The notes beneath the pieces are model-generated. The model made no database searches. It was not told where the DNA came from and saw nothing but the letters and a program-made list of their open reading frames with translations. A stretch of 64,000 bases of DNA from an uncultured Gammaproteobacteria bacterium (GTDB lineage: Bacteria > Patescibacteriota > Patescibacteriia > Magasanikbacterales > GWA2-37-8): the NCBI GenBank assembly GCA_964510885.1, contig CAZEDL010000002.1, positions 64,707-128,706 of the forward strand, read 5' to 3'. Made by a program: the position numbers and the translations under genes. Positions 5,756 to 56,558 of the stretch are shown piece by piece. Numbering within the stretch: the first letter of the stretch is position 1; the number at the start of each line of letters is the position of its first letter.

Positions 5756-5850
5756 GTATTTGGAACAAGGTGAATGGTAACAAAATATGTGCTATACTAT
5801 AGCTTCATATCAGCCTTTAAATACTTGGCCTTTTTAAGACAGCACCGCTT

Positions 5851-10140: not shown

Positions 10141-10160
10141 GAAAAATTAAAAATATTTAA

Positions 10161-10190
10161 AACAACTCCGTAATAACGGAGTTGTTTTTA
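10161..10190 (+). terminator. rho-independent terminator
   Basis: aacaactccgt-aata-acggagttgtt followed by TTT. Confidence 0.7.
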
Positions 10191-10324
10191 TGTATCAATC
10201 TCCCTATCGAACTAAGAGAAATTGATAGATTTAGGTGCTTGAGAATGGACGAATTGTCCGCAACGGCACCCACGTCGCTTTACCTTTAGTGACCATTGCG
10301 ATCACTGCTCATCACGCCGCCCTG

Positions 10325-11882: not shown

Positions 11883-11894
11883 ATGTCTGTCTCC

Positions 11895-17875: not shown

Positions 17876-18961
17876 ATGTACCAAGAAATCATTAGGCCAC
17901 TGTTATTCAAATTATATAGCGACCCTGAAGATGCCCACCACCGCGTGGTGTCGCTTCTTAAAAAAGCTGGCCAGATACCGGGCGTGCTTAATCTGGTTCG
18001 GAGCCAGTATCAAGTAGCCCACACATGCTTGGACCAAACCGTGTTTGGCCTCAGATTTCCCTCTGTGCTTGGGCTCGCGGCTGGCTTTGACAAGCACGGT
18101 GAGGCGCTGCCGGCACTGGCGGCGCTTGGTTTTTCACACCTTGAAATCGGCACTATCACGGCCCATGCTCAGCCTGGTAATCCGCGCCAACGGATGTTTC
18201 GCCTGCCGGCTGATCAGGGCCTTATTAATCGGATGGGATTTAATAACGGCGGGGCTGACGCGCTCGCAGATACGTTAAGACATACGCCGAAATTATCAGT
18301 GCCGATCGGGATCAGCCTTGGTAAATCAAAAATAACCCCGCTCGAAACTGCGGCTGAAGATTATGTAACTAGTTTCAAAAAATTATATTCTCTCGGGGAT
18401 TATTTTGCGATCAATGTCAGCTCTCCCAATACTCCGGGCTTACGTGCACTGCAAAATAAAAGCGCGCTCGAAGACATAGTAGGAGCACTGCAGGCGGAAA
18501 ACAAGCGGTTATCCAAGGGATCATTGAAGCCGCTACTCGTAAAAATCGCTCCGGACCTAGAATTATCGGCAATCGATGAAGTACTCGGTGTTTGCCAGGC
18601 GTTCAACCTCAGCGGCATTATTGCCACTAATACCACGATCAGCCGCGATAATTTAAAAACCAACATTAACGAGGCAGGCGGCCTCAGCGGCGCGCCGGTT
18701 CGCGAGCGGGCGCTCGGGATTGTGCGCCATATCCATGCCAGTGCGCCTACTCTACCAATTATTGGTGTTGGCGGTATATTCACGGCCGATCATGCCTATC
18801 AATTTATTCGAGCCGGAGCATCACTGGTGCAGGCATATACCGGTTTTATTTATCAGGGGCCGGGCTTTGCACATCAGGTACACCAGGGACTCGCTAAACT
18901 CTTGGCACGCGACGGATTCAGTTCAATCCGGCAGGCAATTGGAGTCGATAGTACACCATAA
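17876..18961 (+). CDS. pyrD: dihydroorotate dehydrogenase (quinone), class 2
   Basis: N-terminal membrane-association helix with GFDKHGE, NVSSPNTPGLR and IIGVGGI motifs. Confidence 0.9.
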   Translation: MYQEIIRPLLFKLYSDPEDAHHRVVSLLKKAGQIPGVLNLVRSQYQVAHTCLDQTVFGLRFPSVLGLAAGFDKHGEALPALAALGFSHLEIGTITAHAQPGNPRQRMFRLPADQGLINRMGFNNGGADALADTLRHTPKLSVPIGISLGKSKITPLETAAEDYVTSFKKLYSLGDYFAINVSSPNTPGLRALQNKSALEDIVGALQAENKRLSKGSLKPLLVKIAPDLELSAIDEVLGVCQAFNLSGIIATNTTISRDNLKTNINEAGGLSGAPVRERALGIVRHIHASAPTLPIIGVGGIFTADHAYQFIRAGASLVQAYTGFIYQGPGFAHQVHQGLAKLLARDGFSSIRQAIGVDSTP

Positions 18962-18963
18962 TT

Positions 18964-18994
18964 AAAAATCTCCGGTAGCAACCGGAGATTTTTT
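18964..18994. terminator. bidirectional intrinsic terminator
   Basis: aaatctccggt-agca-accggagattt with T/A tracts on both sides, between the convergent pyrD and ABC exporter genes. Confidence 0.75.
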
Positions 18995-20747
18995 AGAGGC
19001 GTTGTTTTTGCCAGAGCTCAAAGAAGCGGCCATGACTCTTAGACAACTCGGCAAAACTTCCTGATTCGATCAGACGACCATTCTCAAGCAGCAAGATACG
19101 ATCCATCTCCTGAATAGTTGTGAGCCGATGAGCAATAACTACAGCCGTAACTTGCTGAAAAAATTGGTGCAGTGAATCTTTGATTTTATCTTCTGACTCA
19201 AGGTCGAGATGCGACGTGGCTTCATCTAAAAATAAAATATCTGGTTGTTTGTGAATCGCCCTGGCAATACCGACGCGTTGTTTTTCACCGCCCGATAATT
19301 TAATGCCTTTTTCGCCGATAATGGTATCGATCCCGGACGGCAATTTGGACAGAAAGTCCGTTACATGGGCCACAGAGAGCGAAGTGGTCAGGCGGGAATC
19401 GTCAGCCCCGGCAGCTCCGAGGGTGATATTCTCGCGCAGAGAGAGGTTAAATACTTCGGTATCTTGGAGCACGACTGAAACGTGCTTGGTGTAAGAACTT
19501 TTTTTGATATTCCGAATAGAGACACCATCAAATAAGATATCACCGGTAAAACTTTCATATTCTTTCAAGAGGAGCTTGAAGAGTGTGGATTTGCCGGCGC
19601 CAGAGAGCCCCACGAGGCCAAGGCGCTCACCGCGGTGAATATCAAAGGTGACATTCTGCAGTACTGCCGTATCGCCATAGGCAAAGGACACATTGCGTAG
19701 CGAGATCGTGCGCCAGTCTGACGGGAAGTCCTGCTTGCCGGCATCGTTATCAATGCCGGGCTCGGCGGCAAACGTATCTGATAACCGGGCCAAATGATAG
19801 CGTGCAATGGTAATTTCTTGAGAAATACTCGACAACTCCTCCACCGAAGTCCGCAGCGTGGTGAAATAAAAATTAAATAACACTAAAAAACCAACTTCAT
19901 ACTGACCCTTGGTAATACCGATTACAATAACTACCACGGCCAGCACGCGAAAAATAACGGCCCAGTAACTTTGAATGGCAGTTTTGGAGCGAAACCGGCG
20001 AATGCGGCGCCGAATCGCGGCATACAAAATCTTGGTTTCCCGGATCAAGCGCTCTTCAAGGCCCGAGAACAAGCCCATGGCCTTCACCGTCCGAATATTA
20101 TTCAAAATTTCAAATGATAACCCACTGATATCTTCCTCATGCTGACTCACTATGCGCGCGGCGGCCGAAGCCCGGGCCGAGAGTGGAATCACGACGCACA
20201 AATAGGTAATTAAAAATAACAGCATGATCAGTGCAATCAAGCGATCCGTGAAGGCTAAAATGATAATCATGCCGCTAAAATTGATGATAATTTCAACGAC
20301 GTTATCGATCCAGATTTTTAAGAGTCGCTGCGTCCCTTCGCCGCCGCTGTCGATACGTTTCAGTTTGTTGCCGGTATTCTCTTGTTCGTGCCAATCAAGG
20401 TCAAGCAGGTTAAGATGCGATAGGCCGCGGAGCAAAATATCGATTTTGGCTCGTTCGGCTACGGTATAGCAGAGATATTTTGCGCTCTGGCGGGCAGTGA
20501 CGACATAAATATACGACAGCGACCAGCCGGCCAGAATATACCAAAAAGAATCGATCGGTTGGCCCGGCGTGTAGGTGGTAAAATAATCGATCATCCGGGC
20601 TAACAGCTGAACCGTGTACAGGTAGAGCGCATCAGCACTGACGCGAGCCAGGGTGGCGATAATAAAACGGCTCCGATACGGGGTAACGGAGCGGTAGAGG
20701 TCGGCTAGGAGTGATCGGTATGAATAGGTCTTAAAAACTTTTTTCAT
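18993..20747 (-). CDS. ABC exporter, fused permease/ATPase (MsbA/MdlB-like)
   Basis: Six TM N-domain, Walker A GLSGAGKST, signature LSGGEKQR and Walker B ILFLDEATS. Confidence 0.9.
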   Translation of the reverse strand: MKKVFKTYSYRSLLADLYRSVTPYRSRFIIATLARVSADALYLYTVQLLARMIDYFTTYTPGQPIDSFWYILAGWSLSYIYVVTARQSAKYLCYTVAERAKIDILLRGLSHLNLLDLDWHEQENTGNKLKRIDSGGEGTQRLLKIWIDNVVEIIINFSGMIIILAFTDRLIALIMLLFLITYLCVVIPLSARASAAARIVSQHEEDISGLSFEILNNIRTVKAMGLFSGLEERLIRETKILYAAIRRRIRRFRSKTAIQSYWAVIFRVLAVVVIVIGITKGQYEVGFLVLFNFYFTTLRTSVEELSSISQEITIARYHLARLSDTFAAEPGIDNDAGKQDFPSDWRTISLRNVSFAYGDTAVLQNVTFDIHRGERLGLVGLSGAGKSTLFKLLLKEYESFTGDILFDGVSIRNIKKSSYTKHVSVVLQDTEVFNLSLRENITLGAAGADDSRLTTSLSVAHVTDFLSKLPSGIDTIIGEKGIKLSGGEKQRVGIARAIHKQPDILFLDEATSHLDLESEDKIKDSLHQFFQQVTAVVIAHRLTTIQEMDRILLLENGRLIESGSFAELSKSHGRFFELWQKQRL

Positions 20748-20796
20748 AGGAGCTATACCATACCGCCCGGAGGCCTAGCTGGTCAACTGTGCTAGA

Positions 20797-21321
20797 TTAT
20801 TTTTTGCCACGCGCAACAGCGGCAAGAATAGCGGCGGAGTGAGCGGTAAACAACTGCAGTTTTGGCTCGGCTAATAAGGGTGAAGCATCTGCGAACGGAA
20901 TAGTGATTTCGATGGCGGGCTGATCCTTAACCGTGGCTGCTGTGATGCGTTCAGGGAGGGTGGTGAAGACTAAATACCCCGGATCAAGCAAGAATCCGCC
21001 CATCAGATCGCTCGGACTTAATTTTGGCCCTGGTATCGCATAATTTATCACGGCACGCAGGGGATATTTTTTCTTATTACTAACTAGCCACGGCTTTAAA
21101 GAGAGAATGATCCGCTGATTTGTTACCACTACATACACGCTGCGAAACCAAGTTTTGATACGCTCGGTGCCACGGAATAATTCTTCAAGCCGTACTCCTT
21201 CTTCTTCATACAGCACTACTTCGCCTGGTATCGGAGATAATTTGCCGTAGGTAGCATGTCTAAGCAAGTAGACAATCCCGGCCACGAGGATTAAAAAAAT
21301 AACTAGGATCGCTATGTTCAT
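20797..21321 (-). CDS. membrane protein with bacterial PH-like (bPH) domain
   Basis: N-terminal TM helix and a ...VVTNQRIIL... bPH-like core. The start codon overlaps the upstream stop (ATGA). Confidence 0.55.
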   Translation of the reverse strand: MNIAILVIFLILVAGIVYLLRHATYGKLSPIPGEVVLYEEEGVRLEELFRGTERIKTWFRSVYVVVTNQRIILSLKPWLVSNKKKYPLRAVINYAIPGPKLSPSDLMGGFLLDPGYLVFTTLPERITAATVKDQPAIEITIPFADASPLLAEPKLQLFTAHSAAILAAVARGKK

Positions 21322-21653
21322 ACAATAGAGGTCTTAGACAACGATTTAAGTGATGGTTTAGAGCTAGCGTCGTAGGGGCGTGAAGATTTTTCAGCCAGGA
21401 TAAAGCCAGCATCAGCCAAACTTTTGGCCAATCGTTCATAGCGGCTTAGCTTGGGGTGGGAGTCGCGTTGCACACTCTCGGCTAAACGCTCAAAATCTCC
21501 GACTGAAATCAAGACTGCTTTCGGTTCACCGTGCTCGGTGAGTGTGATCGCCTTGCCGGAAGCTGCCACCGCATCGGTGAGGCTAAATAGCTGGGTGCGG
21601 GCAGCAGTGAGCGAGATCGCGGTTGGCACTCGGCGAGAAATTTTTTTCTTCAT
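21318..21653 (-). CDS. Phd/YefM-family antitoxin-like protein
   Basis: ISLTAARTQLFSLTDAVAASGKAITLTEHGEPKAVLISVGDFERL matches the Phd/YefM fold pattern, with an extended C-terminal tail. Confidence 0.65.
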   Translation of the reverse strand: MKKKISRRVPTAISLTAARTQLFSLTDAVAASGKAITLTEHGEPKAVLISVGDFERLAESVQRDSHPKLSRYERLAKSLADAGFILAEKSSRPYDASSKPSLKSLSKTSIV

Positions 21654-21659
21654 AGCGTG

Positions 21660-22175
21660 CTAATTAATAATTCCTTTTAAGAGCCCAAACGGCAATTCGA
21701 TAGCACTGGCCGGATCGCTGGCCCGCGCAACCAGGACCCGTTTCGTGCCAACGGCGCATAAGGCCCATTCTGCGCCGAGCACTCGGGCTTTGTGGAGTGC
21801 ACGGACAAATGATTCGTGGTGTTGGCGATTATTAATCGAGGCGCGATTACATTCGAGCACTAATAGCGGCTCTGTTTTGCCAGCATCACGATAGACCACT
21901 ATCGGAGCTTTTTTACGATTATTGCGCGGCAATGATACATTGATCGCAACCCGAGACAGCGGAATATCGAATACTTCGACGAGGGCCAGCACGCTCGCTG
22001 CCCGCATCTGTTCGTAGGGTTCCTGCCCAGAATAGTCGGGCGCTACTTGGGTCTGGTAATTTACGCGTGGTTGTTCGTAGAGCATCCAGCTCTGAATACA
22101 GGTCGGCCCTGACCACATAGCACTTGAGACCAGAAACCCAGGAAATATACTGACCGGGATAGCATAAGCAGACAT
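21660..22175 (-). CDS. stand-alone PD-(D/E)xK nuclease-like protein (HsdR-N / Mrr-cat-like)
   Basis: APIVVYRDAGKTEPLLVLECNRA resembles the D...(D/E)xK core of the type I R-subunit N-terminal domain. Confidence 0.5.
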   Translation of the reverse strand: MSAYAIPVSIFPGFLVSSAMWSGPTCIQSWMLYEQPRVNYQTQVAPDYSGQEPYEQMRAASVLALVEVFDIPLSRVAINVSLPRNNRKKAPIVVYRDAGKTEPLLVLECNRASINNRQHHESFVRALHKARVLGAEWALCAVGTKRVLVARASDPASAIELPFGLLKGIIN

Positions 22176-22185
22176 ATGTTTTAAT

Positions 22186-22854
22186 TTAAGAAATAATCCC
22201 TTTATCTTTTAGGCTAATATAGCCACGCGCTCCTACAATCACATGGTCAAGGAGAGTAATGCCAAGTATCTGGCCTGCTTCGGCCAGCCGTTTGGTTAGT
22301 ATAATGTCGTTTTCTGAGGGGGTGGGGTCTCCGGAGGGATGATTATGGGCGATGATGATCTCGGCGGCCACCTGGCGCACGGCCGGCTCGAAAATTTCAC
22401 GCGGGTGGATCAGACTGGCATTCAAAATCCCGATCGCCACCACCTCGCGCTTAATAATTTGATGTACCGTATCAAGATAAAACACCAGGCAATGTTCTTT
22501 TTTAAGGGGAATAATGTCTTTTAGCTCTGCAAATACTTCGGCCGGAGACAATAATAGCGCCGCTTGTTTTTGATGCAGGGCGCGGCGGCCGAGCTCGAGT
22601 GCAGCTACGATTTCGAGGGCTTTTACTGTGCCAACGCCAAGCGTCTGACTCAAATCAGACACCGAGGCGGTGGCTAACCCCTTGATTCCAAACCGCCGCA
22701 ATAGATTCCGCCCGACTTCCACAGCGTTCAGCCCGGCAGTGCCGGTGCGCAGCAGAATGGCTAATAATTCCGATGTAGATAATTTATTTGGCCCATAGGC
22801 CAACAATTTTTCGCGCGGGCGATCTACCCGCGGCACCTCCTTAATTGTGGGCAT
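22186..22854 (-). CDS. radC: RadC-like JAB/MPN domain protein
   Basis: HhH N-terminal region and the HNHPSGDPTPSENDIILTKRL JAMM motif. Confidence 0.9.
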   Translation of the reverse strand: MPTIKEVPRVDRPREKLLAYGPNKLSTSELLAILLRTGTAGLNAVEVGRNLLRRFGIKGLATASVSDLSQTLGVGTVKALEIVAALELGRRALHQKQAALLLSPAEVFAELKDIIPLKKEHCLVFYLDTVHQIIKREVVAIGILNASLIHPREIFEPAVRQVAAEIIIAHNHPSGDPTPSENDIILTKRLAEAGQILGITLLDHVIVGARGYISLKDKGIIS

Positions 22855-22983
22855 GCTGAAATTTTTATGTTATTAAAAGAAGAGTTAGTGGGGCTCGATA
22901 TGAGTTTTGATATGTACATTATAGTGTACATATCTATTTTTTGTCAAAAGTGCTTATTTATAGAGTTTTGCGAACACCACTCT

Positions 22984-23164
22984 TGTCATTACCGCGCAGG
23001 CGGGAATCCATACACCAACTGTCATCCTGAGCGTTAGCGAAGGATCCCTTAACGCTAACTCCATACCCACTTTTGACTTTAAGGGATTCTTCGTTTCACT
23101 CAGAATGACAAATTGGTTATAAGTGCGATGCGTGACTGGATTCCCGCCTGCGCGGGAATGACAG
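22984..23164. repeat. nested palindromic MITE/REP-like element
   Basis: Outer inverted repeat tgtcattaccgcgcaggcgggaatcca / tggattcccgcctgcgcgggaatgaca; inner gtcatcctgagcgttagcgaaggatccc / gggattcttcgtttcactcagaatgac. Confidence 0.8.
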
Positions 23165-23239
23165 TATAGGATAACTCGCACTTATCACAACTTGCTCCAG
23201 AAGTAATCACCTGTTACGATATACCTTCTTATCAACCCC

Positions 23240-25081
23240 ATGCCTACTGCGCTCGAAATTCTTCAACACACGTTTGGGTATAGCGAATTCCGCTCTCCTC
23301 AAGCCGATATTATTGCCGCTGTGGCAGCCGGCCACGATACCTTTGTGCTGATGCCGACTGGTGGGGGCAAATCGCTCTGTTACCAAGTGCCAGCACTGAT
23401 GCTCCCGGGCCTGACGGTCGTTATCTCTCCACTGATTGCTTTGATGAAAGACCAGGTAGATGCCTTGCGCCTCAATGGGATTAAAGCAGCCTATCTTAAT
23501 TCTTCACTAGATCCAGTCGAGCGCGACCGCATAATGGGCGCACTTAGCCGACGAGAGCTTAGTTTATTATATATTTCACCCGAGCGGCTGTTTGCAAACG
23601 AGCAACAATTTTTAGGGTGGTTAAAAAAATTGCCGATTGCCTTATTTGCTATTGACGAAGCCCATTGTATTTCACAATGGGGACATGATTTTCGTCCGGA
23701 GTATCGGCTATTATCGCATCTTAAAACTGAATTCCCAACGGTGCCGACGATTGCGCTCACCGCCACTGCGGACCAATTGACCCAGGCCGATATTATTAAA
23801 AAACTAGCACTCCGTGAGCCAAAAATTTTTAAATCGAGCTTCAATCGAGCCAACATTCACTATACGATTGAACCCAAAAAAGGAATGTACTCTCGATTAA
23901 TTGAATATCTGATCGAACATCGTGATGATTCAGGGATTATTTATACTTTGTCACGTAGTTCGGCGGAGAGCCTGGCCGCTGATTTGCGGAGCGAAGGGTT
24001 TGCGGCTGCGCCGTATCATGCAGGCCTTGATAGCATCGTGCGCGAACGACACCAGGATCGATTTTTAAAAGATGATATTAAGATTATTGTAGCTACGATT
24101 GCGTTTGGCATGGGGATTAATAAGTCAAATGTGCGATTCGTGATTCATGCTGATTTACCCAAAAATATCGAGAGCTATTACCAGGAAACTGGCCGGGCTG
24201 GGCGTGACGGACTTAAAAGTGATGCCCTCTTGTTTTATAGCGGCGGCGATGTGTTGAAGCTCCGGCGGTTTGCGCAGGTGGAAAATAACCCGGAACAAAC
24301 CCGGATCATGCTGCATAAATTGCAGCAAATGGCCGATCTGTGCGAAGCGCACAGCTGCCGACGTAAACGACTGCTCGAATATTTTGGCGAGGCGTTTGCG
24401 GCCTCGGCTTGCGATAGCTGTGATGCGTGTTTGACGGATTATGAACATTTTGACGGCACAATCATCGCTCAAAAGGCCTTATCGGCCGCGCTCAGACTGA
24501 ACGGCTCGCACGGCCTTACATATCTCGTAGAATTTTTGCGCGGGTCTAAGTCTGGCAAAATAAAAGATGAGCACAAAGCCCTTAAAACATATGGTGTCGG
24601 AGCGGAATTTTCTAAAGTGCAGTGGTTTTCGTATATTAAAGATCTAATGGCCGCTGGGTTTCTGAGGCAAAACGGGGCTGAGTACCCGGTGATCCAGGTG
24701 ACACAAAAAAGTGTACCGGTGTTGAAGGGGCTAGAACGAGTAGATTTGGTGCGGACGCGAGTGACGCGCGCGGCCGAGACGGTGGAATTACCACATGAAG
24801 CACCTCTTCTCACCACGCTCAAAACGGTGCGAACGAGCCTCGCGGCAGCGGAAAATGTTCCGGCGTATCTTGTCTTTTCGGATGCGACGCTGCTTGAAAT
24901 GGCTACCTATCTCCCCCAGAGTCTTGATGACATGCATAAGATTTCGGGTTTTGGCGAGGTCAAGCTGGCGCGCTATGGCGCAGCCTTCCTGGAACCAATT
25001 ACAACTTATTGTGCAGAGCAACAACTACAGACGCGCATGTCTCAAAAAATCCCTAAACGGCGACGGAGCCGAGCTGCATAA
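23240..25081 (+). CDS. recQ: ATP-dependent DNA helicase RecQ
   Basis: Motifs I through VI (PTGGGKSLCYQ, DEAHCISQWGHDFRPEY), a Zn-binding Cys cluster and a C-terminal HRDC-like region. Confidence 0.95.
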   Translation: MPTALEILQHTFGYSEFRSPQADIIAAVAAGHDTFVLMPTGGGKSLCYQVPALMLPGLTVVISPLIALMKDQVDALRLNGIKAAYLNSSLDPVERDRIMGALSRRELSLLYISPERLFANEQQFLGWLKKLPIALFAIDEAHCISQWGHDFRPEYRLLSHLKTEFPTVPTIALTATADQLTQADIIKKLALREPKIFKSSFNRANIHYTIEPKKGMYSRLIEYLIEHRDDSGIIYTLSRSSAESLAADLRSEGFAAAPYHAGLDSIVRERHQDRFLKDDIKIIVATIAFGMGINKSNVRFVIHADLPKNIESYYQETGRAGRDGLKSDALLFYSGGDVLKLRRFAQVENNPEQTRIMLHKLQQMADLCEAHSCRRKRLLEYFGEAFAASACDSCDACLTDYEHFDGTIIAQKALSAALRLNGSHGLTYLVEFLRGSKSGKIKDEHKALKTYGVGAEFSKVQWFSYIKDLMAAGFLRQNGAEYPVIQVTQKSVPVLKGLERVDLVRTRVTRAAETVELPHEAPLLTTLKTVRTSLAAAENVPAYLVFSDATLLEMATYLPQSLDDMHKISGFGEVKLARYGAAFLEPITTYCAEQQLQTRMSQKIPKRRRSRAA

Positions 25082-25179: not shown

Positions 25180-26007
25180 ATGAAGAATAATACTGGTCCT
25201 GTTATCACTTCGATTGGCATGGCTTTCCTTACGCTCACTATCGCTACCGGTTTTATGTTGCGCGGACATGTGCTGCATGAATCAGATGAAGCCTACCCAA
25301 CTGAACCGATTATCCTGCCACTAACCGATGACGCGGCTCTTGCCAACGACCGCACCGGTGCAACCCAGGCACCGCCGGCCAAAAAATCAGTGGACCAGGT
25401 AGCCACTCCTACATCACCAACCAAACTGATTTTGGAACCAGTGGCTTTCATTTCGCAAGCTCCACGCGGCCAATGGGATAATCAGGATTTTCAGGATGGC
25501 TGCGAAGAAGCGTCGATCCTCATGGCGATGAACTGGGCCACAGGAGCTACCCTTAATATGCGCGATGCTACCACTGATATACAGCGACTGATTGATTGGC
25601 AGCATGCTTCCCCTGGCGGCTACCACCATGATATTTCTGTTCATGATACAGCCCAATTAATCCGCGATTACTACCATTATGAGCCAGTCACGATCCGAGA
25701 AGAGGTTACGGCCCAAACGCTGATCGATATTTTGGGTGATGGCAGCGTGATCATTGCACCGGTTAATGGACAGCTGCTTGATAATCCCTATTTCACTGCT
25801 CCGGGACCGGAATACCACATGCTGGTAGTGATTGGGTATGATCCGGTAAAAAAAGAATTTATCACTAATGACCCAGGCACCCGGCGCGGCAAACAATTTC
25901 GCTATAAAGAAGCGCAATTCATGACGGCCCTGCGCGATTATCCGAGCGGACACCATGAACCGATCACTGAACATAATAAACGCATTATTATAGTGAATAA
26001 GCGGTAG
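25180..26007 (+). CDS. secreted peptidase C39-like domain protein
   Basis: N-terminal TM/signal region and QWDNQDFQDGCEEASILMAMNW, the catalytic-Cys region of the Peptidase_C39_2 pattern. Confidence 0.5.
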   Translation: MKNNTGPVITSIGMAFLTLTIATGFMLRGHVLHESDEAYPTEPIILPLTDDAALANDRTGATQAPPAKKSVDQVATPTSPTKLILEPVAFISQAPRGQWDNQDFQDGCEEASILMAMNWATGATLNMRDATTDIQRLIDWQHASPGGYHHDISVHDTAQLIRDYYHYEPVTIREEVTAQTLIDILGDGSVIIAPVNGQLLDNPYFTAPGPEYHMLVVIGYDPVKKEFITNDPGTRRGKQFRYKEAQFMTALRDYPSGHHEPITEHNKRIIIVNKR

Positions 26008-34791: not shown

Positions 34792-37700
34792 CTAAGGTGT
34801 AGACGTGACAACCAGTTCTTCTAACGGCTGAGACGTTAGTTCGAGAGGGGCAGGTTCGTCGGTCTCTTTTTCCGGAGATGACTCCCCTGTTAATGGAGCT
34901 GGTTCAATGAGTGGTGGTGTGAGTGGCGTGGCTGGAACAGCAGCAGGATCTACTATTGCCGCCGGTGGAACCAAACGATTCGATTCTGCCTGAAGTAACT
35001 GCTCTAATTTGTCACCAGTAATACAGACTTCACCGCCAGCTGATTTTTTGAGGCACAACTGATCAGCATGAATTTTTTTGGCAAACAGCTCCGTGAAGTA
35101 TCCCCGCACGGCCGAGATCCGAGCCGCTACGAAATCAGTGAGGACTTTGTGGCCAGCGCTCATTTTTTTACTGATAATTACAATTGGGTCGCTCGCTACT
35201 TCAGACTGAATAGTGGAGATGAGGCTCGCGATACCAGTGTCGGAAGTCGGCGTAATATCCCCGAGCAGTACTTGCTGGTCTTGAATAGATTGCACAAGGA
35301 GCGGGGTGAGGCGACCATAATCAACTGCCCACGGATCAGTTTCAGCATCTACGCCGCCCACCGAAACGACTTGCGGAAAAATATCATACAATTCTTGGGC
35401 AATAAAGCCTTGCTGCACTTTACCAGGGGCGGAAATAAAATTAAAATCACGGACTTTTATTTTAAGTAACGTGTCGAGCCCGTGCGCGGTGGCGGTTACA
35501 TTTTCCTTGCGCCTGGCATCTGAAGTGGTAGGGCACGTAACACCCCCGGCATTGTCGCCTTGACACTGCCCAAGCAGCGTGCCGTCACCATCGATAAAAC
35601 GAATAAAATGATTGGTCGTATTAGGATTAGCGTTTGGCCCAAGCTGGATACCAATCCCATCGGCATCGACCGTATTATTGGTATTGCGAAAAGTAAAACC
35701 GGTAGAGGCAATGCCAGTGGTGAAATTCTGAATACCGGTGCCGGCGTTAAAATTGAGGGCTGTGGCACCAGTCGTGTTACCAATAGTGACGGTATTAGCA
35801 ACACTGCCGGTACCGATGTTAATGATTTTACTACCAGTGCCACCAGTTCCGAAATTGAGTGTTTGCGCACCGGTGCCGGTGCCAATGCTGATTGCGCCGG
35901 TTTGGGCGCCGGTGCCACCGATATTAATGACACCGGTAGTCATGGAGTTGCCGATCAAAATAGAACCGGCGTTTTGAGTATTACCAAGACCAACAGAGTT
36001 GGCCGCAGTACCGCCAATGGTAATAGTTTGCACTGCGGCTGATGTACCGATATTTATGGCCCGGGACACGGCATTGGTGCCAATATTGATTGCACCGGTT
36101 CCCGCGATTAAACTAAGCGAGGTGGCCCCGGTACCATTACCGATGGTGATAGTTTTTGCACTGAAAGCTGTACCAATATTGAGCGCACCAGTCGTACCAC
36201 TATCGAGAGACAGGGTGGTGGCATTGCCAGAGCGCAGTGTGAGCGCACCACCACCGGTAATAGTAGCATTGGCGGCGCCGAACCCAATCGTGGTGGCAGC
36301 CCCACCAATATTAAGAGTGGTGGCAGCCGTATTAAAAAGCGCAGCCGTGTTGTTAGTAGTGCTCAGCGTGCCGCCATTGAGGCTCAGAGCGCCAGATATC
36401 GTAATATTGCTACCATTATTTTGCAGCGCTGCAGAACGCACCCAATCGGTGCCATCGAAATACATCGTATCATTCGCAACTTCTCCACTCAAAGAAATTT
36501 TGGCACCACTGATTGCATTATTGATGATATCTGTGCCGGCAATCGTATCGGTTAGATTTAGTTTACTATAGGCGATATCTGCACCATCAGCAATGTCATC
36601 ATTAACGATACTGTTGTTAACAATTTTACTCGAATCAACGGAATCGGTAGCTAATTTGGCGAGCGTGACATTAGCATTAAGAATTTTACTAGTGGTCACA
36701 GCATCATTAGCAAGCTTGGCAGTGGTGACAGCCAGGTCATTTAGTTTTTCTGTTACAACGGCGAGATCGGCTAGCTTGCCCGCAGTCACTCCAAGGTCAG
36801 CCAATTTCGCTGTGGTAATGGCTGCGTCCAAAACTTTTACGGTCGTAACTGCATCAGCGGCCAGCTTACCCGCGGTCACCGCTAGATCATTAATTTTGGC
36901 AGTCGTGACAGTTAAATCAGCGAGTTTGGCTGTTTCGACTGCGCCATCGGCCAATTTGGCAGCGGTAACGGCAGCCGCTTGTAGCTTGGCGGTTGAAACA
37001 CTGACATTAGCCAGCTTGCTCGTATCTACCGAGGCATTTACCAGCTTACTCGTGTCTACAGAATCTGTGGCCAGCTTATCAAGCGTTACCGCAAGGTCGG
37101 CCAGCTTGCCAGTCGTGACTGCAAGATCATTAATTTTGGCGGTGGTAATAGCATTATTTATCAGCTGATTAGTTGCCACCGTATTAGCTGCTATTTTGAG
37201 GGTCGTAACTGCACCATCGGCTAATTTGCTTTCAGTAATGGCTGCATCTTGGAGATTGCTGGTGTCGATTGACTGCGCGGTAAGTGTAGCTAGCCCCCCG
37301 GCGGTAACCGTGAGATCACCGGATACTGTTTGTCCGGTGGGAACATTACTCCCATTCCCAATAAAAATTTGCCCAGTTGGGAGAGTGGCCGCTTGTTTAT
37401 TGTTGAAGGCAGTCCAGTCAGCGGCCGAGAGAAAACCATCGGTCGTGGCTCCGGCTTCGGCCAATCCTAATACTCCGGATGCGCTGTCGTAAGAGAGTGG
37501 TGCACCAGATACCGAGAGGGCGCTACGGGCGCGGGCCGTCGAAAAATATTGGTTAACTGCACCTTCGGTAAGATCATCGGTAGTTTTAGTAGCAAGGCGG
37601 GCATCAAAACGAGCTGTGGTGTAATACAGATTATTACCTCCTTCCGACAAATCATCGGTTGTTTTGGTAGCAAAATCGGCAGCAAAGAGGCTGCTGGCAT

Positions 37701-38442
37701 AATATTTATTAGATGTACCTTCGGCTAAATCATTGCTGGTTTTAGCGTTAAAACGAGTGTCGAATAAGCTATCAAACAAAGCCATCACCCGGGCATCAGC
37801 CCGCGTGTCGGTAAAGTAGCGATTCGTAGCCCCTTCGCTCACCTGATCGGTGGTGTAATCGCCGCTCGTCGCTACCACAGCTCCAGTGCGGGTATTAAAT
37901 GAAGTCACGCCAGTCGGGGGTCCAGCTTGGAGTCCTTGCCAAGCAGCGCCGTCATACACATAAATAGTGTTGTCGTCGGTATCAAAATATAATTCTCCTG
38001 GGGTGGCCGTGGTTGGCGGAGCGGACTGAGCCACGAGGCCGTAGGATGTGTGGGCATAGGCCACCGCATTAATTGCGGTGCGCGGCGACATTTCACCGGT
38101 ACCAAGGGTAGTAATCTCTAAACTTAAAAAATACTGCCTATCAAATGGTAAGGCAGCAATTGATGTATAGGTTCCGCCGAGATGGGTGCCCGTGCCGATG
38201 GCAACTGAAAAATAGCCATTTGAGAGGCTGGTGCCCGGATGAGTTTCATCAAGTAGCAGTGTACCCCCGGCGGCGGCGTCGTAGATACGGGTACGAATAA
38301 TATGCGAACCAGACTGAGGAGATCCCGCAGAATTAGTCACGTAGCCATCGTAACCAATAGTTTGTGGAGCGGCCAATGCTAAGGCTGGCGCCAAAATGGT
38401 TGCTCCTACAAATATACTGAGTAAGAATCGTGAAAAAGCCAT
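34792..38442 (-). CDS. giant secreted repeat protein with C-terminal tail-fibre intramolecular chaperone (peptidase S74) domain
   Basis: Signal peptide and about 25 tandem 11-residue repeats (…AVTTAKLADLAVT…). The S74 signature is SDARRKENV...GFIAQELYDIFPQVV, followed by a further ~200 aa. Confidence 0.8.
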   Translation of the reverse strand: MAFSRFLLSIFVGATILAPALALAAPQTIGYDGYVTNSAGSPQSGSHIIRTRIYDAAAGGTLLLDETHPGTSLSNGYFSVAIGTGTHLGGTYTSIAALPFDRQYFLSLEITTLGTGEMSPRTAINAVAYAHTSYGLVAQSAPPTTATPGELYFDTDDNTIYVYDGAAWQGLQAGPPTGVTSFNTRTGAVVATSGDYTTDQVSEGATNRYFTDTRADARVMALFDSLFDTRFNAKTSNDLAEGTSNKYYASSLFAADFATKTTDDLSEGGNNLYYTTARFDARLATKTTDDLTEGAVNQYFSTARARSALSVSGAPLSYDSASGVLGLAEAGATTDGFLSAADWTAFNNKQAATLPTGQIFIGNGSNVPTGQTVSGDLTVTAGGLATLTAQSIDTSNLQDAAITESKLADGAVTTLKIAANTVATNQLINNAITTAKINDLAVTTGKLADLAVTLDKLATDSVDTSKLVNASVDTSKLANVSVSTAKLQAAAVTAAKLADGAVETAKLADLTVTTAKINDLAVTAGKLAADAVTTVKVLDAAITTAKLADLGVTAGKLADLAVVTEKLNDLAVTTAKLANDAVTTSKILNANVTLAKLATDSVDSSKIVNNSIVNDDIADGADIAYSKLNLTDTIAGTDIINNAISGAKISLSGEVANDTMYFDGTDWVRSAALQNNGSNITISGALSLNGGTLSTTNNTAALFNTAATTLNIGGAATTIGFGAANATITGGGALTLRSGNATTLSLDSGTTGALNIGTAFSAKTITIGNGTGATSLSLIAGTGAINIGTNAVSRAINIGTSAAVQTITIGGTAANSVGLGNTQNAGSILIGNSMTTGVINIGGTGAQTGAISIGTGTGAQTLNFGTGGTGSKIINIGTGSVANTVTIGNTTGATALNFNAGTGIQNFTTGIASTGFTFRNTNNTVDADGIGIQLGPNANPNTTNHFIRFIDGDGTLLGQCQGDNAGGVTCPTTSDARRKENVTATAHGLDTLLKIKVRDFNFISAPGKVQQGFIAQELYDIFPQVVSVGGVDAETDPWAVDYGRLTPLLVQSIQDQQVLLGDITPTSDTGIASLISTIQSEVASDPIVIISKKMSAGHKVLTDFVAARISAVRGYFTELFAKKIHADQLCLKKSAGGEVCITGDKLEQLLQAESNRLVPPAAIVDPAAVPATPLTPPLIEPAPLTGESSPEKETDEPAPLELTSQPLEELVVTSTP

Positions 38443-54228: not shown

Positions 54229-54248
54229 AACATCTATAATTAATAGGA

Positions 54249-56558
54249 TTATTTCAGTTTTTTAATTTTTTCAAGCACCTCTTGATTATTCGGATTCAGT
54301 TCACTGACTTTGGTATAGTAGCTGAGCGCTTCGGCGCGCTTGCCGATTGTCTCATTCCACAGGCCAAGGCTATACAGAGTATTTGAATGATTGGAATCAA
54401 GCGTTAAAGCGCTCTGCCATAAAGCGGCGGCGGCGCTTCGATCAGAGCCTTGGTTGCGATTAAATAACAACCGGCCGTATTGGAATAACACTTCTTGGTT
54501 GTTGCGGCCGAGTGGCGCCATGGTTTCATACACACTAATCGCCTTATCCATATTCCCCTGCTGCTCATAGGCATTAGCAAGCCCATAATACGCAGCCAGG
54601 TAATCATTTTTTAAAAAAATTGCTGATTCATAATTTTTTACCGCCTCACTCCAGCGACCAGCCGCTGCATAATTGCTACCAAGGCGCCAAGCGAGCAGCG
54701 GATTGGAGGGCTCGAGATGCACCGCTTCTTTAAGAGAACGGATGGCCCAGTCGCGCGCCCCTGGAATAATGATGGCTGCCTGCTCGTACATGGTTGCTAA
54801 ATTTTCCCATACCGCCACCGAGCGCGGCGCGATTTCGGTAGCACGGTTTGCTTGATTCACAGCCAGCCCCACGAGGCGCCCTACTTGCTCGCTATTGGCA
54901 CCCTGTGATTGACTAATTTTCAGCGCTTGAAGCAAATACACCTGCGCTATCGCTGCATAATACTTTTCGTTCCGCGATTGTAATTGAATGGCCTGTGTCA
55001 AATCGGATTCGGCTTTAACATAATCTGACTGAGTGCGGGCTCTGGCATACAACCGATCGGCTATATAAAAACGACACCAGGCAATTTCTCCAAATATTAC
55101 AGCCCCAAAAATTACCGCTAGCACGAAAGAAAAAGCTACTTGGCGCTCGGGAGCACCTACTACACGCAGCGATTTTAATTTAATCAGTCGGTCGTTACTC
55201 AGCGACAAGCCTACCATTAAAAGCCCAAGCAGTAAAAACCACAACCACCACATTACCTGTCCAAAAAATAACCAGCCCATACTCACCGTCAGTACCAGCC
55301 AGCCGCCACCTACCAGTAACACTCCCCACTCTTGCGCAATTTTTTGTTGCCTAAGCGTCGCGGCAACACTCTCTATACTGCGATGTGCCCGCACCCTAGC
55401 AGCTGCTGCCAACAATTGAGCTGCCGTTACGATTACAACCACTAGCCATGACAACGCAACTATCACCCCGCCCTCACTTAGCAGTGCCAATACCGTGCTA
55501 AATGGGTTATTGAAGCGCAGACTCACCGCCACCGGATCAGTATTTACTGCTAAACTTTTAAAGGCTAAGAAATTAATTCCGAACGTCCCTGGACCTGTAC
55601 CGATCAATATATTTTTAATACTGCCCGACCACGCCCCCATGGTCACCGACCACGATTCACGCGCATTAAGCGACACTTCAACCGGTAACACTGTTTGAAA
55701 AACTCGCGGCGTGTCGAATAAAATAAAAATTATGGTAAATATAAATAGTGCGAGCACCCCTGACAACGCAACCAAATTTGTTTCATGTATAACGCGGACC
55801 GCGAGCAAAAGCAGTACAAAAAGGGCTACCGCACACACAATCCAAATAATCTTAAAACTAATTAGCGCCAGGGCCATAATAGCCAGCAGGGCGACGGCCG
55901 CATACCCTATCTTTTTGGGCAACGAAACGGTCTTTTGCACCAGCTGACCAAGCGAAAGAAATCCAATCAACACTGTAAACAATCCAAAGGTGCCGTTTAC
56001 TTCTGCAACGGTATTTGAGAGCGGTACCCCAAATACTACAGAGATGACATCAATATGCAGCACTGTTTTCAGTACAAATACTGCAATTGTGCCACCACCA
56101 GCCACTATTAACGCATCAAGTACTAGCTGCCAACGACGCCATGATGTAACTGTATTAGTCAGCAAGATATACCACAAGCACAGCCCCACAGCCGTCAGCC
56201 AGTACAGGGAAAAAATTTCGCTGCTACCAATAAAACTAGTTATATGGGTCACCGAGAACAGTGCTGACGCGAGCACGCTGATTACCAAAATTACTATTGG
56301 CATATCCAACACCGACATGCGATATTCTACCGTCCGCAGGATCAACGTTTTTAACAGTTTAAATAGCACCGCCATCCCTAAAAGAGCCATTAGTAGATAA
56401 TACTTAGCTCCAGTTACCGCCTGTACCAGCGCCCCATCCACCCACCACGGCATTGCCATCACTGCACCCACAATCACACCAAACGACAGCCAGTCAATTA
56501 TTTTTAAAAGCAGCCCGCGCATGCGAGACATATAATAATGAATAGGGTAAAGATGCAA
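54249..56558 (-). CDS. O-antigen ligase (Wzy_C)-like polytopic membrane protein with C-terminal TPR repeats
   Basis: More than 10 TM helices followed by about 6 TPR units (…AWRLGSNYAAAGRWSEAVKNYESAI…, …YYGLANAYEQQGNMDKAISVYE…). Confidence 0.6.
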   Translation of the reverse strand: MHLYPIHYYMSRMRGLLLKIIDWLSFGVIVGAVMAMPWWVDGALVQAVTGAKYYLLMALLGMAVLFKLLKTLILRTVEYRMSVLDMPIVILVISVLASALFSVTHITSFIGSSEIFSLYWLTAVGLCLWYILLTNTVTSWRRWQLVLDALIVAGGGTIAVFVLKTVLHIDVISVVFGVPLSNTVAEVNGTFGLFTVLIGFLSLGQLVQKTVSLPKKIGYAAVALLAIMALALISFKIIWIVCAVALFVLLLLAVRVIHETNLVALSGVLALFIFTIIFILFDTPRVFQTVLPVEVSLNARESWSVTMGAWSGSIKNILIGTGPGTFGINFLAFKSLAVNTDPVAVSLRFNNPFSTVLALLSEGGVIVALSWLVVVIVTAAQLLAAAARVRAHRSIESVAATLRQQKIAQEWGVLLVGGGWLVLTVSMGWLFFGQVMWWLWFLLLGLLMVGLSLSNDRLIKLKSLRVVGAPERQVAFSFVLAVIFGAVIFGEIAWCRFYIADRLYARARTQSDYVKAESDLTQAIQLQSRNEKYYAAIAQVYLLQALKISQSQGANSEQVGRLVGLAVNQANRATEIAPRSVAVWENLATMYEQAAIIIPGARDWAIRSLKEAVHLEPSNPLLAWRLGSNYAAAGRWSEAVKNYESAIFLKNDYLAAYYGLANAYEQQGNMDKAISVYETMAPLGRNNQEVLFQYGRLLFNRNQGSDRSAAAALWQSALTLDSNHSNTLYSLGLWNETIGKRAEALSYYTKVSELNPNNQEVLEKIKKLK

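What the first reader, a model, noticed from the sequence alone, without database searches (positions are those of the whole stretch)
20797..22854. Phd/YefM-like antitoxin translationally coupled to a PH-domain membrane protein, beside a stand-alone PD-(D/E)xK protein and RadC
The 111-aa ORF matches the Phd/YefM antitoxin pattern. Its stop overlaps (ATGA) the start of a 174-aa protein that has an N-terminal TM helix and a bacterial PH-like domain; this protein sits where a toxin would and is not a known toxin family.

Immediately upstream on the same strand are a 171-aa protein with an HsdR-N/Mrr-like PD-(D/E)xK core and RadC, and a MITE-like repeat element abuts the cluster. Together these look like a small defence/addiction module with a non-canonical membrane effector.
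Basis: partly seen in the sequence, partly recalled or inferred. Interest (0 to 1): 0.65.

Follow-up and report, generated by a model that had tools for sequence, protein, structure and literature searches.

The report
Orphan YefM antitoxin in radC operon
A genuine YefM/Phd-type antitoxin gene sits in an ordinary chromosomal radC operon with no recognisable toxin; it most likely works as the operon's repressor, and the membrane PH-domain protein after it belongs to a widespread family that is never antitoxin-linked elsewhere, so this is probably not a new toxin-antitoxin or defence module.

Summary
The described features are all present: radC, a 171-aa ORF, a 111-aa Phd/YefM protein (Pfam 44.8 bits, cutoff 29.8), and a 174-aa protein whose start overlaps the YefM stop (ATGA). 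A confident AlphaFold model (pLDDT 93.5) shows the 174-aa protein is an N-terminal TM helix plus a PH-like domain.

The 174-aa protein belongs to an unannotated family of more than 333 clusters. In 11 other genomic contexts it never sits beside an antitoxin. The flanking genes are core functions, there are no PADLOC hits, and no plasmid, phage or viral relatives were found.

Two new observations:
1. The 12/12 sigma-70 promoter upstream of radC carries the published YefM operator signature. It has two TGTACA boxes 12 bp centre to centre around the -10. This occurs once in the window (0.01 expected), so YefM probably represses the whole operon.
2. The only YefM relative found keeps the 171-aa/YefM junction and the YefM C-terminal helix under purifying selection, but has no intact 174-like ORF.

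If a cis partner exists, the 171-aa protein, a degenerate HsdR-N-like protein, is the better candidate. Interest is modest.

The parts
22918..22947 (-). sigma-70 promoter of the operon: TTGACA, 18 nt, TATAAT (12 of 12 consensus matches)
   Evidence: This is the only 12/12 site in 18800-23400. No other minus-strand promoter-like site of 9/12 or better lies between here and the end of the YefM-like gene.
22909..22934 (.). YefM-type operator candidate: GATA-TGTACA-CTATAA-TGTACA-TATC. The two TGTACA boxes (22913-22918 and 22925-22930) are 12 bp apart centre to centre. One lies in the -35/-10 spacer and the other overlaps the last base of the -10.
   Evidence: one exact match; 0.01 expected per 64 kb; none in 20 other loci. 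The architecture matches the published YefM and Axe operators (PMC1802561; PMC7730913; E. coli K-12 sequence read).
22186..22854 (-). radC (222 aa), full-length HhH + JAB type, with the HNHPSGDPTPSEND metal motif intact
   Evidence: NF000642 equivalog 233.6 bits vs cutoff 180; UPF0758_N plus RadC JAB.
21660..22175 (-). 171-aa ORF: a lineage-restricted protein with a weak HsdR-N (HSDR_N_2)-like, apparently non-catalytic PD-(D/E)xK-type domain. It is the best candidate for a cis partner of the YefM-like protein.
   Evidence: sub-threshold profile hits; its C-terminal 32 aa are 88% identical in L015, with 15 synonymous vs 4 replacement differences, and its stop lies 1 nt before the YefM start; the single-sequence AF2 model is poor (pLDDT 46); no PDB sequence, plasmid, phage or viral relatives.
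21318..21653 (-). 111-aa YefM/Phd-family antitoxin-type protein. The fold spans residues 12-68. The conserved C-terminal helix is SRYERLAKSLADAGFILAEKSSRPY (70-95).
   Evidence: the nearest solved relatives are Mtb RelB/Rv2865, RelJ and S. aureus YefM. R19 aligns with YefM R10, E40 replaces YefM R31, and R74/S78 in the toxin-binding helix are invariant..
20797..21321 (-). 174-aa protein: N-terminal TM helix (2-20) followed by a PH-like domain inferred to be cytoplasmic. It belongs to an unannotated family of more than 333 clusters. Its start overlaps the YefM stop (ATGA).
   Evidence: Invariant residues across the 33 aligned members are E34, T67 and R70.
18993..20747 (-). 584-aa MsbA-like ABC half-transporter (exporter), 49 nt downstream on the same strand with no predicted terminator in between. 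It is possibly co-transcribed.
22984..23163 (.). Nested palindromic MITE/REP-like element in the radC-recQ intergenic region. It does not include the TGTACA operator.

Best explanation
radC, the 171-aa ORF, the YefM-like gene and the 174-aa gene form one tightly packed operon, with gaps of 10 nt and 6 nt and then a 4-nt overlap. It is driven by a consensus sigma-70 promoter in an ordinary chromosomal region and may read through into the ABC exporter gene.

The 111-aa protein is a true YefM/Phd-class antitoxin-type protein (shown). The promoter's -10 is bracketed by two TGTACA boxes 12 bp apart centre to centre. This is the published signature of YefM and Axe operators. The protein therefore most likely binds there as a dimer pair and autorepresses the whole operon (inferred).

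No YoeB, RelE, ParE or Doc toxin is present (shown at the sensitivity available). It is therefore an orphan or co-opted YefM.

The 174-aa protein is a membrane-anchored PH-like protein, inferred to face the cytoplasm. It comes from a widespread uncharacterised family that is not antitoxin-linked anywhere else examined (shown). It therefore occupies the toxin slot without being a dedicated toxin.

If the conserved C-terminal helix of YefM still engages a protein encoded in cis, the 171-aa protein is the more likely partner. It looks like a degenerate HsdR-N-like protein. This last point is inferred from a single relative.
For: - YefM identity.
- Operon structure: one search shows a 12/12 promoter and no internal minus-strand promoter or terminator between radC and the 174-aa gene.
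- Operator statistics: 1 match, 0.01 expected; 0 matches in 20 control loci. It is not part of the repeat family.
- Operator literature: paired TGTACA boxes, 6-bp spacer, covering the -10, conserved in diverse genomes (PMC1802561). The axe-txe layout, with one box in the spacer and one partly over the -10, is the same as here (PMC7730913). The E. coli operator was read directly.
- R19 aligns with the DNA-binding residue R10 of YefM.
- No toxin found.
- The 174-aa family is not antitoxin-linked in 11 other contexts.
- L015: the 171/YefM junction is conserved. The 171 C-terminus has 15 synonymous vs 4 replacement differences. The YefM C-terminal helix has 12 vs 4, while the YefM fold is only 56% identical. 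No intact 174-like ORF follows.
- Core-gene surroundings.
Against: - The operator lies about 1.26 kb upstream of the YefM start, with two genes in between. Published cases lie within 80 bp.
- The second DNA-binding arginine of E. coli YefM (R31) is Glu (E40) here and in the relative, so identical DNA recognition is not assured.
- The ATGA overlap with the 174-aa gene is unique in the window. It mirrors canonical antitoxin-toxin coupling, as in L019.
- The YefM C-terminal helix keeps the canonical toxin-binding signature (R74, S78). This argues that some protein partner still exists.
- The 171/YefM linkage rests on one 582-nt, 0.41x-coverage contig.
- Nothing here is experimental.
Confidence: 0.5

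Rival explanations
1. One reading: the YefM-like protein and the 174-aa TM-PH protein form a type II toxin-antitoxin or addiction pair. The membrane-anchored PH protein is the toxin and is neutralised by the YefM C-terminal helix.
For: - The ATGA overlap is unique in the window and sits exactly in the slot that a RelE-like toxin occupies in the distant relative L019.
- YefM retains a toxin-binding-type helix.
- The PH domain is probably cytoplasmic, so contact is physically possible. This is inferred from the positive residues after the TM helix.
- PH folds are peptide-binding modules (general knowledge).
Against: - The 174-aa family has more than 333 clusters and no antitoxin neighbour in 11 other contexts.
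- The only YefM relative lacks an intact downstream homologue. The family HMM gives E = 3.5, there is an in-frame stop at codon 11, and DNA homology decays after the YefM stop.
- There are no PADLOC, toxin-family, plasmid, phage or viral links.
- The chromosomal context is core genes.
Confidence: 0.12
2. Reverse-order TA pair: the 171-aa HsdR-N-like protein is the toxin or effector, and the downstream YefM-like protein is its antitoxin. radC and the PH gene are bystanders in the same transcript.
For: - In L015 the 171-homologue stop is 1 nt from the YefM start.
- The 171 C-terminus (88% aa identity; 15 synonymous vs 4 replacement differences) and the YefM C-terminal helix (85%; 12 vs 4) are both far more conserved than the YefM fold (56%). 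That pattern is expected for interacting surfaces.
- There are weak restriction-endonuclease-like profile hits.
Against: - The profile hits are below the curated threshold.
- By inspection, the positions where HSDR_N_2 proteins carry D and K read P and N (APIVVY...LECN). This suggests an inactive nuclease fold. It is my inference and has not been computed.
- Toxin-first order is unusual for Phd/YefM.
- There is no room for a dedicated promoter or operator upstream of the 171-aa gene (a 10-nt gap).
- The evidence is a single comparison from a low-coverage contig.
- The structure model was unusable (pLDDT 46).
Confidence: 0.2
3. The 174-aa TM-PH protein is an accessory factor of the ABC exporter 49 nt downstream. 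This would be analogous to the PH-domain proteins DdE and DdF, which are required for ABC-dependent export of enterocin DD14. Its link to YefM would be incidental.
For: - The two genes are on the same strand, 49 nt apart, with no predicted terminator between them.
- The precedent is in PMC8657885: the PH-domain genes ddE and ddF lie upstream of ABC transporter genes, and their deletion blocks export.
- A C39-like peptidase gene lies 4.4 kb away.
Against: - Only 1 of 11 other contexts (L004) has an ABC exporter within 5 kb, and it is on the opposite strand.
- DdE and DdF are YdbT/bPH_2-type proteins. The 174-aa protein does not hit that family.
- No bacteriocin-like small ORF was identified.
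Confidence: 0.1
4. The YefM-like gene is a decaying remnant of a former yefM-yoeB/relE cassette whose toxin was deleted. Under this model it has no current function, and the TGTACA pair at the radC promoter is coincidental or serves another regulator.
For: - No toxin was detected.
- Orphan antitoxins are common in genome surveys (for example PMC7192599).
- The R31 equivalent is lost.
- The operator is far from the gene.
Against: - The gene is intact and under purifying selection in two diverged genomes, most strongly in the C-terminal helix.
- An exact literature-defined motif, expected 0.01 times per window, falls precisely on the promoter of the operon carrying the window's only YefM gene.
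Confidence: 0.15

Closest known systems
YefM-YoeB (E. coli) and Axe-Txe (Enterococcus) type II TA systems; also Mtb RelBE2 (Rv2865/2866) and RelJK
   Same: - Same antitoxin family, above the Pfam and TIGRFAM cutoffs, and the nearest solved structures.
- The R10-equivalent arginine and the R/S signature of the toxin-binding helix are conserved.
- The promoter carries paired TGTACA boxes 12 bp centre to centre around the -10, in the same layout as the axe-txe pat promoter.
- The antitoxin stop overlaps the next gene's start.
   Different: - No YoeB, RelE or Txe toxin is present.
- The downstream gene is a TM-PH protein.
- The operator is about 1.26 kb upstream, with radC and a 171-aa gene in between, rather than within 80 bp.
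- The R31 equivalent is Glu.
- There is a 13-aa lineage-specific conserved insertion after the helix (GFILAEKSSRPYD).
- The context is chromosomal core genes.
Bacterial PH-domain proteins (PHb/bPH families; YdbS/YdbT; DdE/DdF of the enterocin DD14 cluster)
   Same: - PH-like beta-sandwich with a C-terminal helix, membrane-associated, and small.
- Some relatives weakly hit bPH_3.
- The gene lies just upstream of an ABC exporter, as with ddE and ddF.
   Different: - The window protein itself hits no bPH Pfam family. The best structural match is the eukaryotic Vps36 GLUE domain, at only E 2.8e-3 and TM 0.42-0.52.
- It has a single N-terminal TM anchor rather than the YdbS/YdbT architecture.
- The ABC link is not conserved in other contexts.
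E. coli CP4-44-type module yeeS (RadC-like JAB) - yeeT - cbeA (antitoxin) - cbtA (toxin)
   Same: Same gene order: RadC-type JAB gene, small ORF, antitoxin, toxin slot. The JAB domain is homologous (34% identity, E 7e-27).
   Different: - Here RadC is the full-length HhH+JAB housekeeping type.
- The 171-aa protein is unrelated to YeeT and the 174-aa protein is unrelated to CbtA.
- The antitoxin family differs (YefM vs CbeA).
- There is no prophage context.
Stand-alone HsdR N-terminal (HSDR_N_2, PF13588) PD-(D/E)xK-like proteins
   Same: The 171-aa protein aligns to profile positions 3-98 of 110 (E 1.9e-4) and to the equivalent N-terminal region of PADLOC type I MTase models. The low-confidence predicted secondary-structure order (alpha, then three beta strands, alpha, then beta) is compatible.
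   Different: - The score is below the gathering threshold.
- The catalytic D and K appear to be replaced (inspection only).
- It has an extra N-terminal region of about 50 aa.
- No homologues were found apart from the L015 fragment.

Membership tests
Phd/YefM antitoxin family (PF02604 / TIGR01552) | Profile match above the curated cutoff | tested here: met
   PF02604 44.8 bits vs 29.8; TIGR01552 38.6 vs 20.8. PDB relatives are RelB/Rv2865, RelJ and S. aureus YefM.
Phd/YefM antitoxin family (PF02604 / TIGR01552) | DNA-binding arginines of the N-terminal basic patch (E. coli YefM R10 and R31) | tested here: inconclusive
   R19 aligns with R10. The R31 position is E40. The requirement for both residues is from PMC4803016.
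YefM-YoeB-type TA operon | Adjacent cognate toxin of the YoeB/RelE/ParE (or Doc) families | tested here: not met
   Neither neighbour hits these families. Scores against E. coli YoeB and a RelE-like toxin are about 0 bits. No such ORF is detectable in the window at single-sequence sensitivity.
YefM-YoeB-type TA operon | Autoregulatory operator: paired TGTACA boxes, 12 bp centre to centre, overlapping the promoter | tested here: met
   The boxes are at 22913-22930, on the 12/12 promoter. However, the site is 1.26 kb from the YefM start rather than within 80 bp (PMC1802561). Binding itself was not tested.
Type II toxin-antitoxin pair (YefM-like + 174-aa protein) | Co-conservation of the two genes as a pair across genomes | tested here: not met
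   None of 11 other contexts of the 174-aa family has an antitoxin neighbour. The L015 YefM relative has no intact 174-like ORF.
Type II toxin-antitoxin pair (171-aa protein + YefM-like) | Co-conservation of the two genes as a pair across genomes | tested here: inconclusive
   The junction is conserved in the single relative available (L015). No other homologues could be retrieved.
Type II toxin-antitoxin pair (any) | Toxin arrests growth and the antitoxin rescues it | not testable with these tools
   Requires expression experiments.
Bacterial PH-like domain proteins | PH fold: seven-stranded beta-sandwich capped by a C-terminal helix | tested here: met
   AF2 pLDDT 93.5. The top Foldseek PDB hits are almost all PH or PH-like domains at prob 0.9-1.0. 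Viral-library hits include RanBD1 and 'Bacterial PH domain protein'.
Bacterial PH-like domain proteins | Membership of a curated bPH Pfam family (bPH_1 to bPH_6) | tested here: not met
   The window protein has no hit. Only 5 of 33 relatives hit bPH_3, with a best E of 4.6e-4.
PD-(D/E)xK nuclease / HSDR_N_2 | Profile match above the gathering threshold | tested here: not met
   21.9 bits, below 25 (E 1.9e-4). There is a supporting sub-threshold PADLOC MTase_I N-terminal hit.
PD-(D/E)xK nuclease / HSDR_N_2 | Catalytic D...(D/E)xK residues | tested here: inconclusive
   By inspection of the sequence the motif reads KKAPIVVY...LLVLECN. No computed alignment to family members was possible, and the AF2 model was unusable.
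RadC (UPF0758, HhH + JAB) | Equivalog-level profile match, N-terminal domain and JAB metal motif | tested here: met
   NF000642 233.6 bits vs 180; PF20582 plus PF04002. The HNHPSGDPTPSEND motif is present.
Known anti-phage defence systems (PADLOC) | Significant match of any component to a defence-system model, in a defence-island context | tested here: not met
   Only generic weak JAB and MTase-N hits. The flanking genes are core functions.
PH-domain accessory of ABC exporters (DdE/DdF-like) | Conserved adjacency to ABC transporter genes | tested here: not met
   The two genes are adjacent in the window (49 nt). Only 1 of 11 other contexts has an ABC exporter nearby, and it is on the opposite strand.

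The most novel reading that the evidence does not exclude
The YefM-type protein has exchanged its canonical RNase toxin for a non-canonical partner encoded in the same operon. The partner would be either the degenerate HsdR-N-like 171-aa protein or the membrane-anchored PH-domain protein. The partner would bind the conserved lineage-specific C-terminal helix (SRYERLAKSLADAGFILAEKSSRPY) and so tune repression of a radC DNA-repair operon from a classic TGTACA operator. That would be either a new type II TA family or a repressor controlled by membrane sequestration or a co-repressor, built from TA parts.
Probability: 0.2. Interest if true: 0.6.

Novelty: new variant of a known kind. Interest (0 to 1): 0.32.

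Why it matters
If the operator prediction holds, this is a clear example of a YefM antitoxin and its signature operator governing a housekeeping-type operon (radC and neighbours) rather than a toxin gene. That bears on how orphan antitoxins get co-opted as regulators.

The work also defines an unannotated, multi-phylum family of more than 333 clusters of TM-anchored PH-like proteins with a confident structural model. The family merits a DUF-level entry.

It does not provide a new defence system or a new membrane toxin.

Tried and rejected
- **Word-indexed homologue searches** with the 174-aa and 111-aa proteins returned only the queries plus one YefM relative. The exhaustive HMMER scan was needed to find the PH family.
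A 3-sequence alignment gave only 4 genome loci. The source genome itself was not among the species representatives.
- **The metagenome scan** with the YefM alignment gave only two distant relatives.
- **PDB sequence searches** for the 171-aa and 174-aa proteins found nothing meaningful (the BamA POTRA hits at E 0.03 were judged spurious).
- **The single-sequence AF2 model of the 171-aa protein** was unusable (pLDDT 46), so no fold search was run on it.
- **The L015 downstream stub** (MNLVALLIFQ*) looked like a remnant of the 174-aa N-terminus but is not significant against the family HMM (E 3.5). I treat it as inconclusive.
- **Plasmid and phage tblastn (171-aa protein) and viral locus scans (171-aa protein, PH family, YefM)** found nothing.
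- **The last encoding-contig lookup**, for the 171-aa protein, found no record.
- **LexA/SOS box.** I considered it for the palindrome and rejected it on spacing, from my own knowledge of LexA motifs. This was not computed.
- **Plus-strand terminator.** I rejected this reading of the palindrome because no plus-strand gene ends there.
- **Taxonomy** stays unresolved. The nearest PH homologues come from a Ca. Magasanikiibacteriota MAG and from MAGs labelled 'uncultured Gammaproteobacteria'.
Full report
**Observation**

On the minus strand the window carries five genes in a row:
- radC, 22854..22186
- a 171-aa ORF, 22175..21660
- a 111-aa ORF, 21653..21318
- a 174-aa ORF, 21321..20797
- a 584-aa MsbA-like ABC half-transporter, 20747..18993

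The intergenic distances are 10 nt, 6 nt, a 4-nt overlap (ATGA) and 49 nt.

The 111-aa protein is a bona fide Phd/YefM family member. PF02604 scores 44.8 bits against a cutoff of 29.8, and TIGR01552 scores 38.6 against 20.8.

RadC is the full-length HhH+JAB type. It matches at equivalog level (NF000642, 233.6 bits vs 180). [quoted passage not shown]

The 171-aa protein gives only sub-threshold hits to the HsdR N-terminal domain:
- HSDR_N_2 at E 1.9e-4, 21.9 bits, below the cutoff of 25
- a PADLOC type I MTase N-terminal region at E 2.1e-4

The 174-aa protein has no hit in Pfam, NCBIfam, PADLOC or PHROGs.

A nested palindromic repeat element lies between radC and the divergent recQ gene. Copies of its units also occur at 5500-5760.

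The ATGA overlap is the only 4-nt overlap among 41 same-strand neighbour pairs in the window, although 10 of the 41 have gaps of 10 nt or less.

**What the 174-aa protein is**

A word-indexed search of 5.8 billion proteins found only the protein itself. An exhaustive HMMER scan of 1.84 billion representatives found 40 relatives of about 160-180 aa. A profile of 33 of them then retrieved more than 333 clusters. All are unannotated, and none has a precomputed Pfam domain.

The family has three parts:
- an N-terminal hydrophobic helix followed by basic residues
- a conserved 'LDKLxxLPGE ... VRVTNxRII' core, with E34, T67 and R70 invariant
- a beta-rich C-terminal half

AlphaFold2 with this alignment gives pLDDT 93.5 and pTM 0.87. 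The model has a TM helix at 2-20, then a beta-sandwich, then a C-terminal helix at 162-172.

Nearly all of the top 50 Foldseek PDB matches are PH or PH-like (Ran-binding) domains, led by the Vps36 GLUE domain. The statistics are modest (E 2.8e-3, TM 0.42-0.52). Five of 33 relatives weakly hit bPH_3 and four hit the Vps36 family. The viral library returns the same fold class.

From the positive-inside rule I infer that the PH domain faces the cytoplasm.

**Is it the toxin of the YefM-like gene?**

I examined 11 other genomic contexts of family members, from 44% down to about 25% identity. The neighbours were:
- RNase III, in the closest homologue (a Ca. Magasanikiibacteriota MAG)
- an HD hydrolase, in three related MAGs
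- GlpX, a methyltransferase, LysE, a CLC channel and unknown proteins

None of the neighbours is a Phd/YefM or any other antitoxin family, including the unannotated ones that I profiled.

I also tested from the antitoxin side. The only detectable relative of the 111-aa protein is P0003, at 55% identity. It lies on a 582-nt contig (L015). Downstream of it there is only a 10-codon stub ending in an in-frame stop. That region is not significantly similar to the family HMM (E 3.5), and DNA homology with the window decays right after the YefM stop.

The flanking genes are core functions: DsbA-like thioredoxin, peroxiredoxin, Fe/Mn-SOD, PyrD and RecQ. No integrase or defence gene turned up among the flanking genes profiled. 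None of the proteins has plasmid, phage or viral relatives.

**New observation 1: a YefM-type operator on the radC promoter**

Upstream of radC lies the only perfect sigma-70 promoter in the region: TTGACA, 18 nt, TATAAT, at 22947..22918. Its spacer and -10 lie inside the palindrome GATA-TGTACA-CTATAA-TGTACA-TATC.

[quoted passage not shown] It covers the -10, and such pairs recur upstream of yefM homologues in diverse genomes (PMC1802561). I read the E. coli site directly from K-12 as TGTACA-ATGAAC-TGTACA.

In the homologous axe-txe promoter, one box lies in the -35/-10 spacer and the other partly overlaps the -10 (PMC7730913). That is exactly the layout here.

The exact motif occurs once in the 64-kb window, against 0.01 expected. 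It is absent from the 20 other loci fetched. It is not part of the repeat family. TGTACA on its own is not enriched: 12 occurrences against 9.6 expected.

No minus-strand promoter-like or terminator-like site separates radC from the 174-aa gene, apart from a weak 5-bp stem inside radC. I infer that the four genes, and perhaps the ABC exporter, are one transcript repressed by the YefM-like protein.

Caveats:
- The site is about 1.26 kb from the YefM start, not within 80 bp.
- Of the two arginines essential for operator binding by E. coli YefM (R10 and R31; PMC4803016), R10 is conserved as R19 but R31 is Glu40.

**New observation 2: the conserved neighbour is the 171-aa gene**

On L015 the 32 codons upstream of the YefM relative encode CAVGTKRVLVARAADPSSVIELPFGLLKGVIN. 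That is 88% identical to the C-terminus of the window's 171-aa protein, and its stop is 1 nt from the YefM start.

Codon comparison between the window and L015:

| Segment | aa identity | Synonymous differences | Replacement differences |
|---|---|---|---|
| 171-aa C-terminus (32 codons) | 88% | 15 | 4 |
| YefM C-terminal helix (residues 70-95) | 85% | 12 | 4 |
| YefM fold (residues 12-60) | 56% | 16 | 21 |

The 171-aa ORF is therefore a real gene under purifying selection. The most constrained part of YefM is its partner-binding tail.

That tail keeps the family-wide R/S signature of the toxin-binding helix: YERLAKSL here, ARRLMDSI in E. coli YefM, and VARISESL in a relative paired with a RelE-like toxin. 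It also carries a lineage-specific 13-aa insertion.

Neither neighbour resembles YoeB or RelE, and no such ORF is detectable elsewhere in the window. If a cis partner exists, the 171-aa protein fits the conservation pattern better than the 174-aa protein.

By inspection, however, its putative PD-(D/E)xK positions read AP...ECN. This suggests a non-catalytic domain, which is an odd candidate for a toxin. All of this rests on one contig with 0.41x coverage.

**Mechanism I commit to (confidence about 0.5)**

This is an orphan or co-opted YefM that autorepresses a radC-orf171-yefM-orf174 operon through a classic paired-TGTACA operator.

- Shown: family membership, operon compactness, motif identity and rarity, absence of a canonical toxin, and lack of co-conservation with the PH family.
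- Inferred: DNA binding, co-transcription, and any protein partner.

Rivals:
- a reverse-order 171/YefM TA pair (0.2)
- a functionless remnant with a coincidental palindrome (0.15)
- a PH-protein/ABC-exporter partnership modelled on DdE/DdF of enterocin DD14 (PMC8657885; 0.1; not exclusive of the main model)

**Comparison with known systems**

The locus works like a YefM-YoeB or Axe-Txe autoregulated cassette at the level of repressor and operator. It fails the membership test for a TA operon because no cognate toxin or co-conserved partner is shown.

Its gene order resembles the E. coli CP4-44 module yeeS(radC-like)-yeeT-cbeA-cbtA. Only the JAB domain is homologous.

The PH protein is a new, unannotated family within the PH-like fold, not a member of any curated bPH family.

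**Verdict**

The defence/addiction interpretation is not supported.

What remains is a modestly interesting variant: an orphan YefM with its signature operator placed in front of a housekeeping-type operon, plus a newly delineated TM-PH family. Interest is 0.32. It is a new variant of a known kind.

Noticed in passing
window 22954-23181 and 5500-5760: A family of nested palindromic REP/MITE-like units (GTCATTCTGAG..CGAAGAATCC and GTCATTCCCGCGCAGGCGGGAATCC, with their complements) occupies intergenic regions. A 31-nt unit is 100% identical between 5581-5611 and 23082-23112.
   Followed up: partly
window 36664-37151 (inside the 1216-aa ORF 34792..38442, minus strand): Direct repeats are spaced at multiples of 30 nt: 6 copies of a 68-nt unit at 62-75% identity. 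This implies a decapeptide-repeat region in a very large protein.
   Followed up: no
window 10000-12100: A GC-rich segment (0.58-0.64 against about 0.48 elsewhere) holds a 592-aa minus-strand ORF with a C-terminal NUDIX domain. Long ORFs overlap it on the opposite strand. This is a compositional anomaly or a low-complexity protein.
   Followed up: partly
window 54000-57000: Strongly negative GC skew (-0.12 to -0.24) and positive AT skew across the 769-aa minus-strand ORF 54249..56558.
   Followed up: no
window 25180-26007 and 26767-29532: Downstream of recQ lie a 275-aa protein with a Peptidase_C39_2 domain and a 921-aa protein with a C-terminal DUF5648. C39-like peptidases are often associated with ABC-type peptide export, and an ABC exporter lies 4.4 kb away.
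   Followed up: no
L012 310-1506, L013/L008 665-1858, L014 1669-2897: In three MAGs the PH-family gene directly follows an HD-domain hydrolase gene, with gaps of about 20-56 nt. This is the only recurring neighbour seen for the family.
   Followed up: partly
L002 5001-7154: The closest homologue of the 174-aa protein (44% identity, Ca. Magasanikiibacteriota MAG) lies about 500 nt upstream of a 376-aa Fic_N+Fic gene. Fic belongs to the same superfamily as Doc, the classical partner of Phd. This is probably coincidental.
   Followed up: no
L015 448-582: After the YefM relative's stop there is an ATG-initiated stub, MNLVALLIFQ*, matching the window's MNIAILVIF at 5 of 9 residues. The following in-frame sequence weakly recalls the family's 'L..LPGE' motif (not significant, E 3.5). 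It may be a decayed 174-like gene, or an assembly error in a 0.41x contig.
   Followed up: partly
window 20748-22880: None of radC, the 171-aa gene, the YefM-like gene, the 174-aa gene or the ABC exporter gene has an obvious Shine-Dalgarno sequence within 15 nt of its start (by eye). The organism may use SD-independent initiation. Its taxonomy remains unresolved.
   Followed up: no
L019 4929-5575: A distant Phd/YefM relative from a soil metagenome shows the canonical arrangement. The antitoxin stop overlaps by 4 nt the start of a 97-aa RelE/ParE-like toxin (...GTYRIVYRIDEDSRIVHVLDIDHRSEIY).
   Followed up: partly
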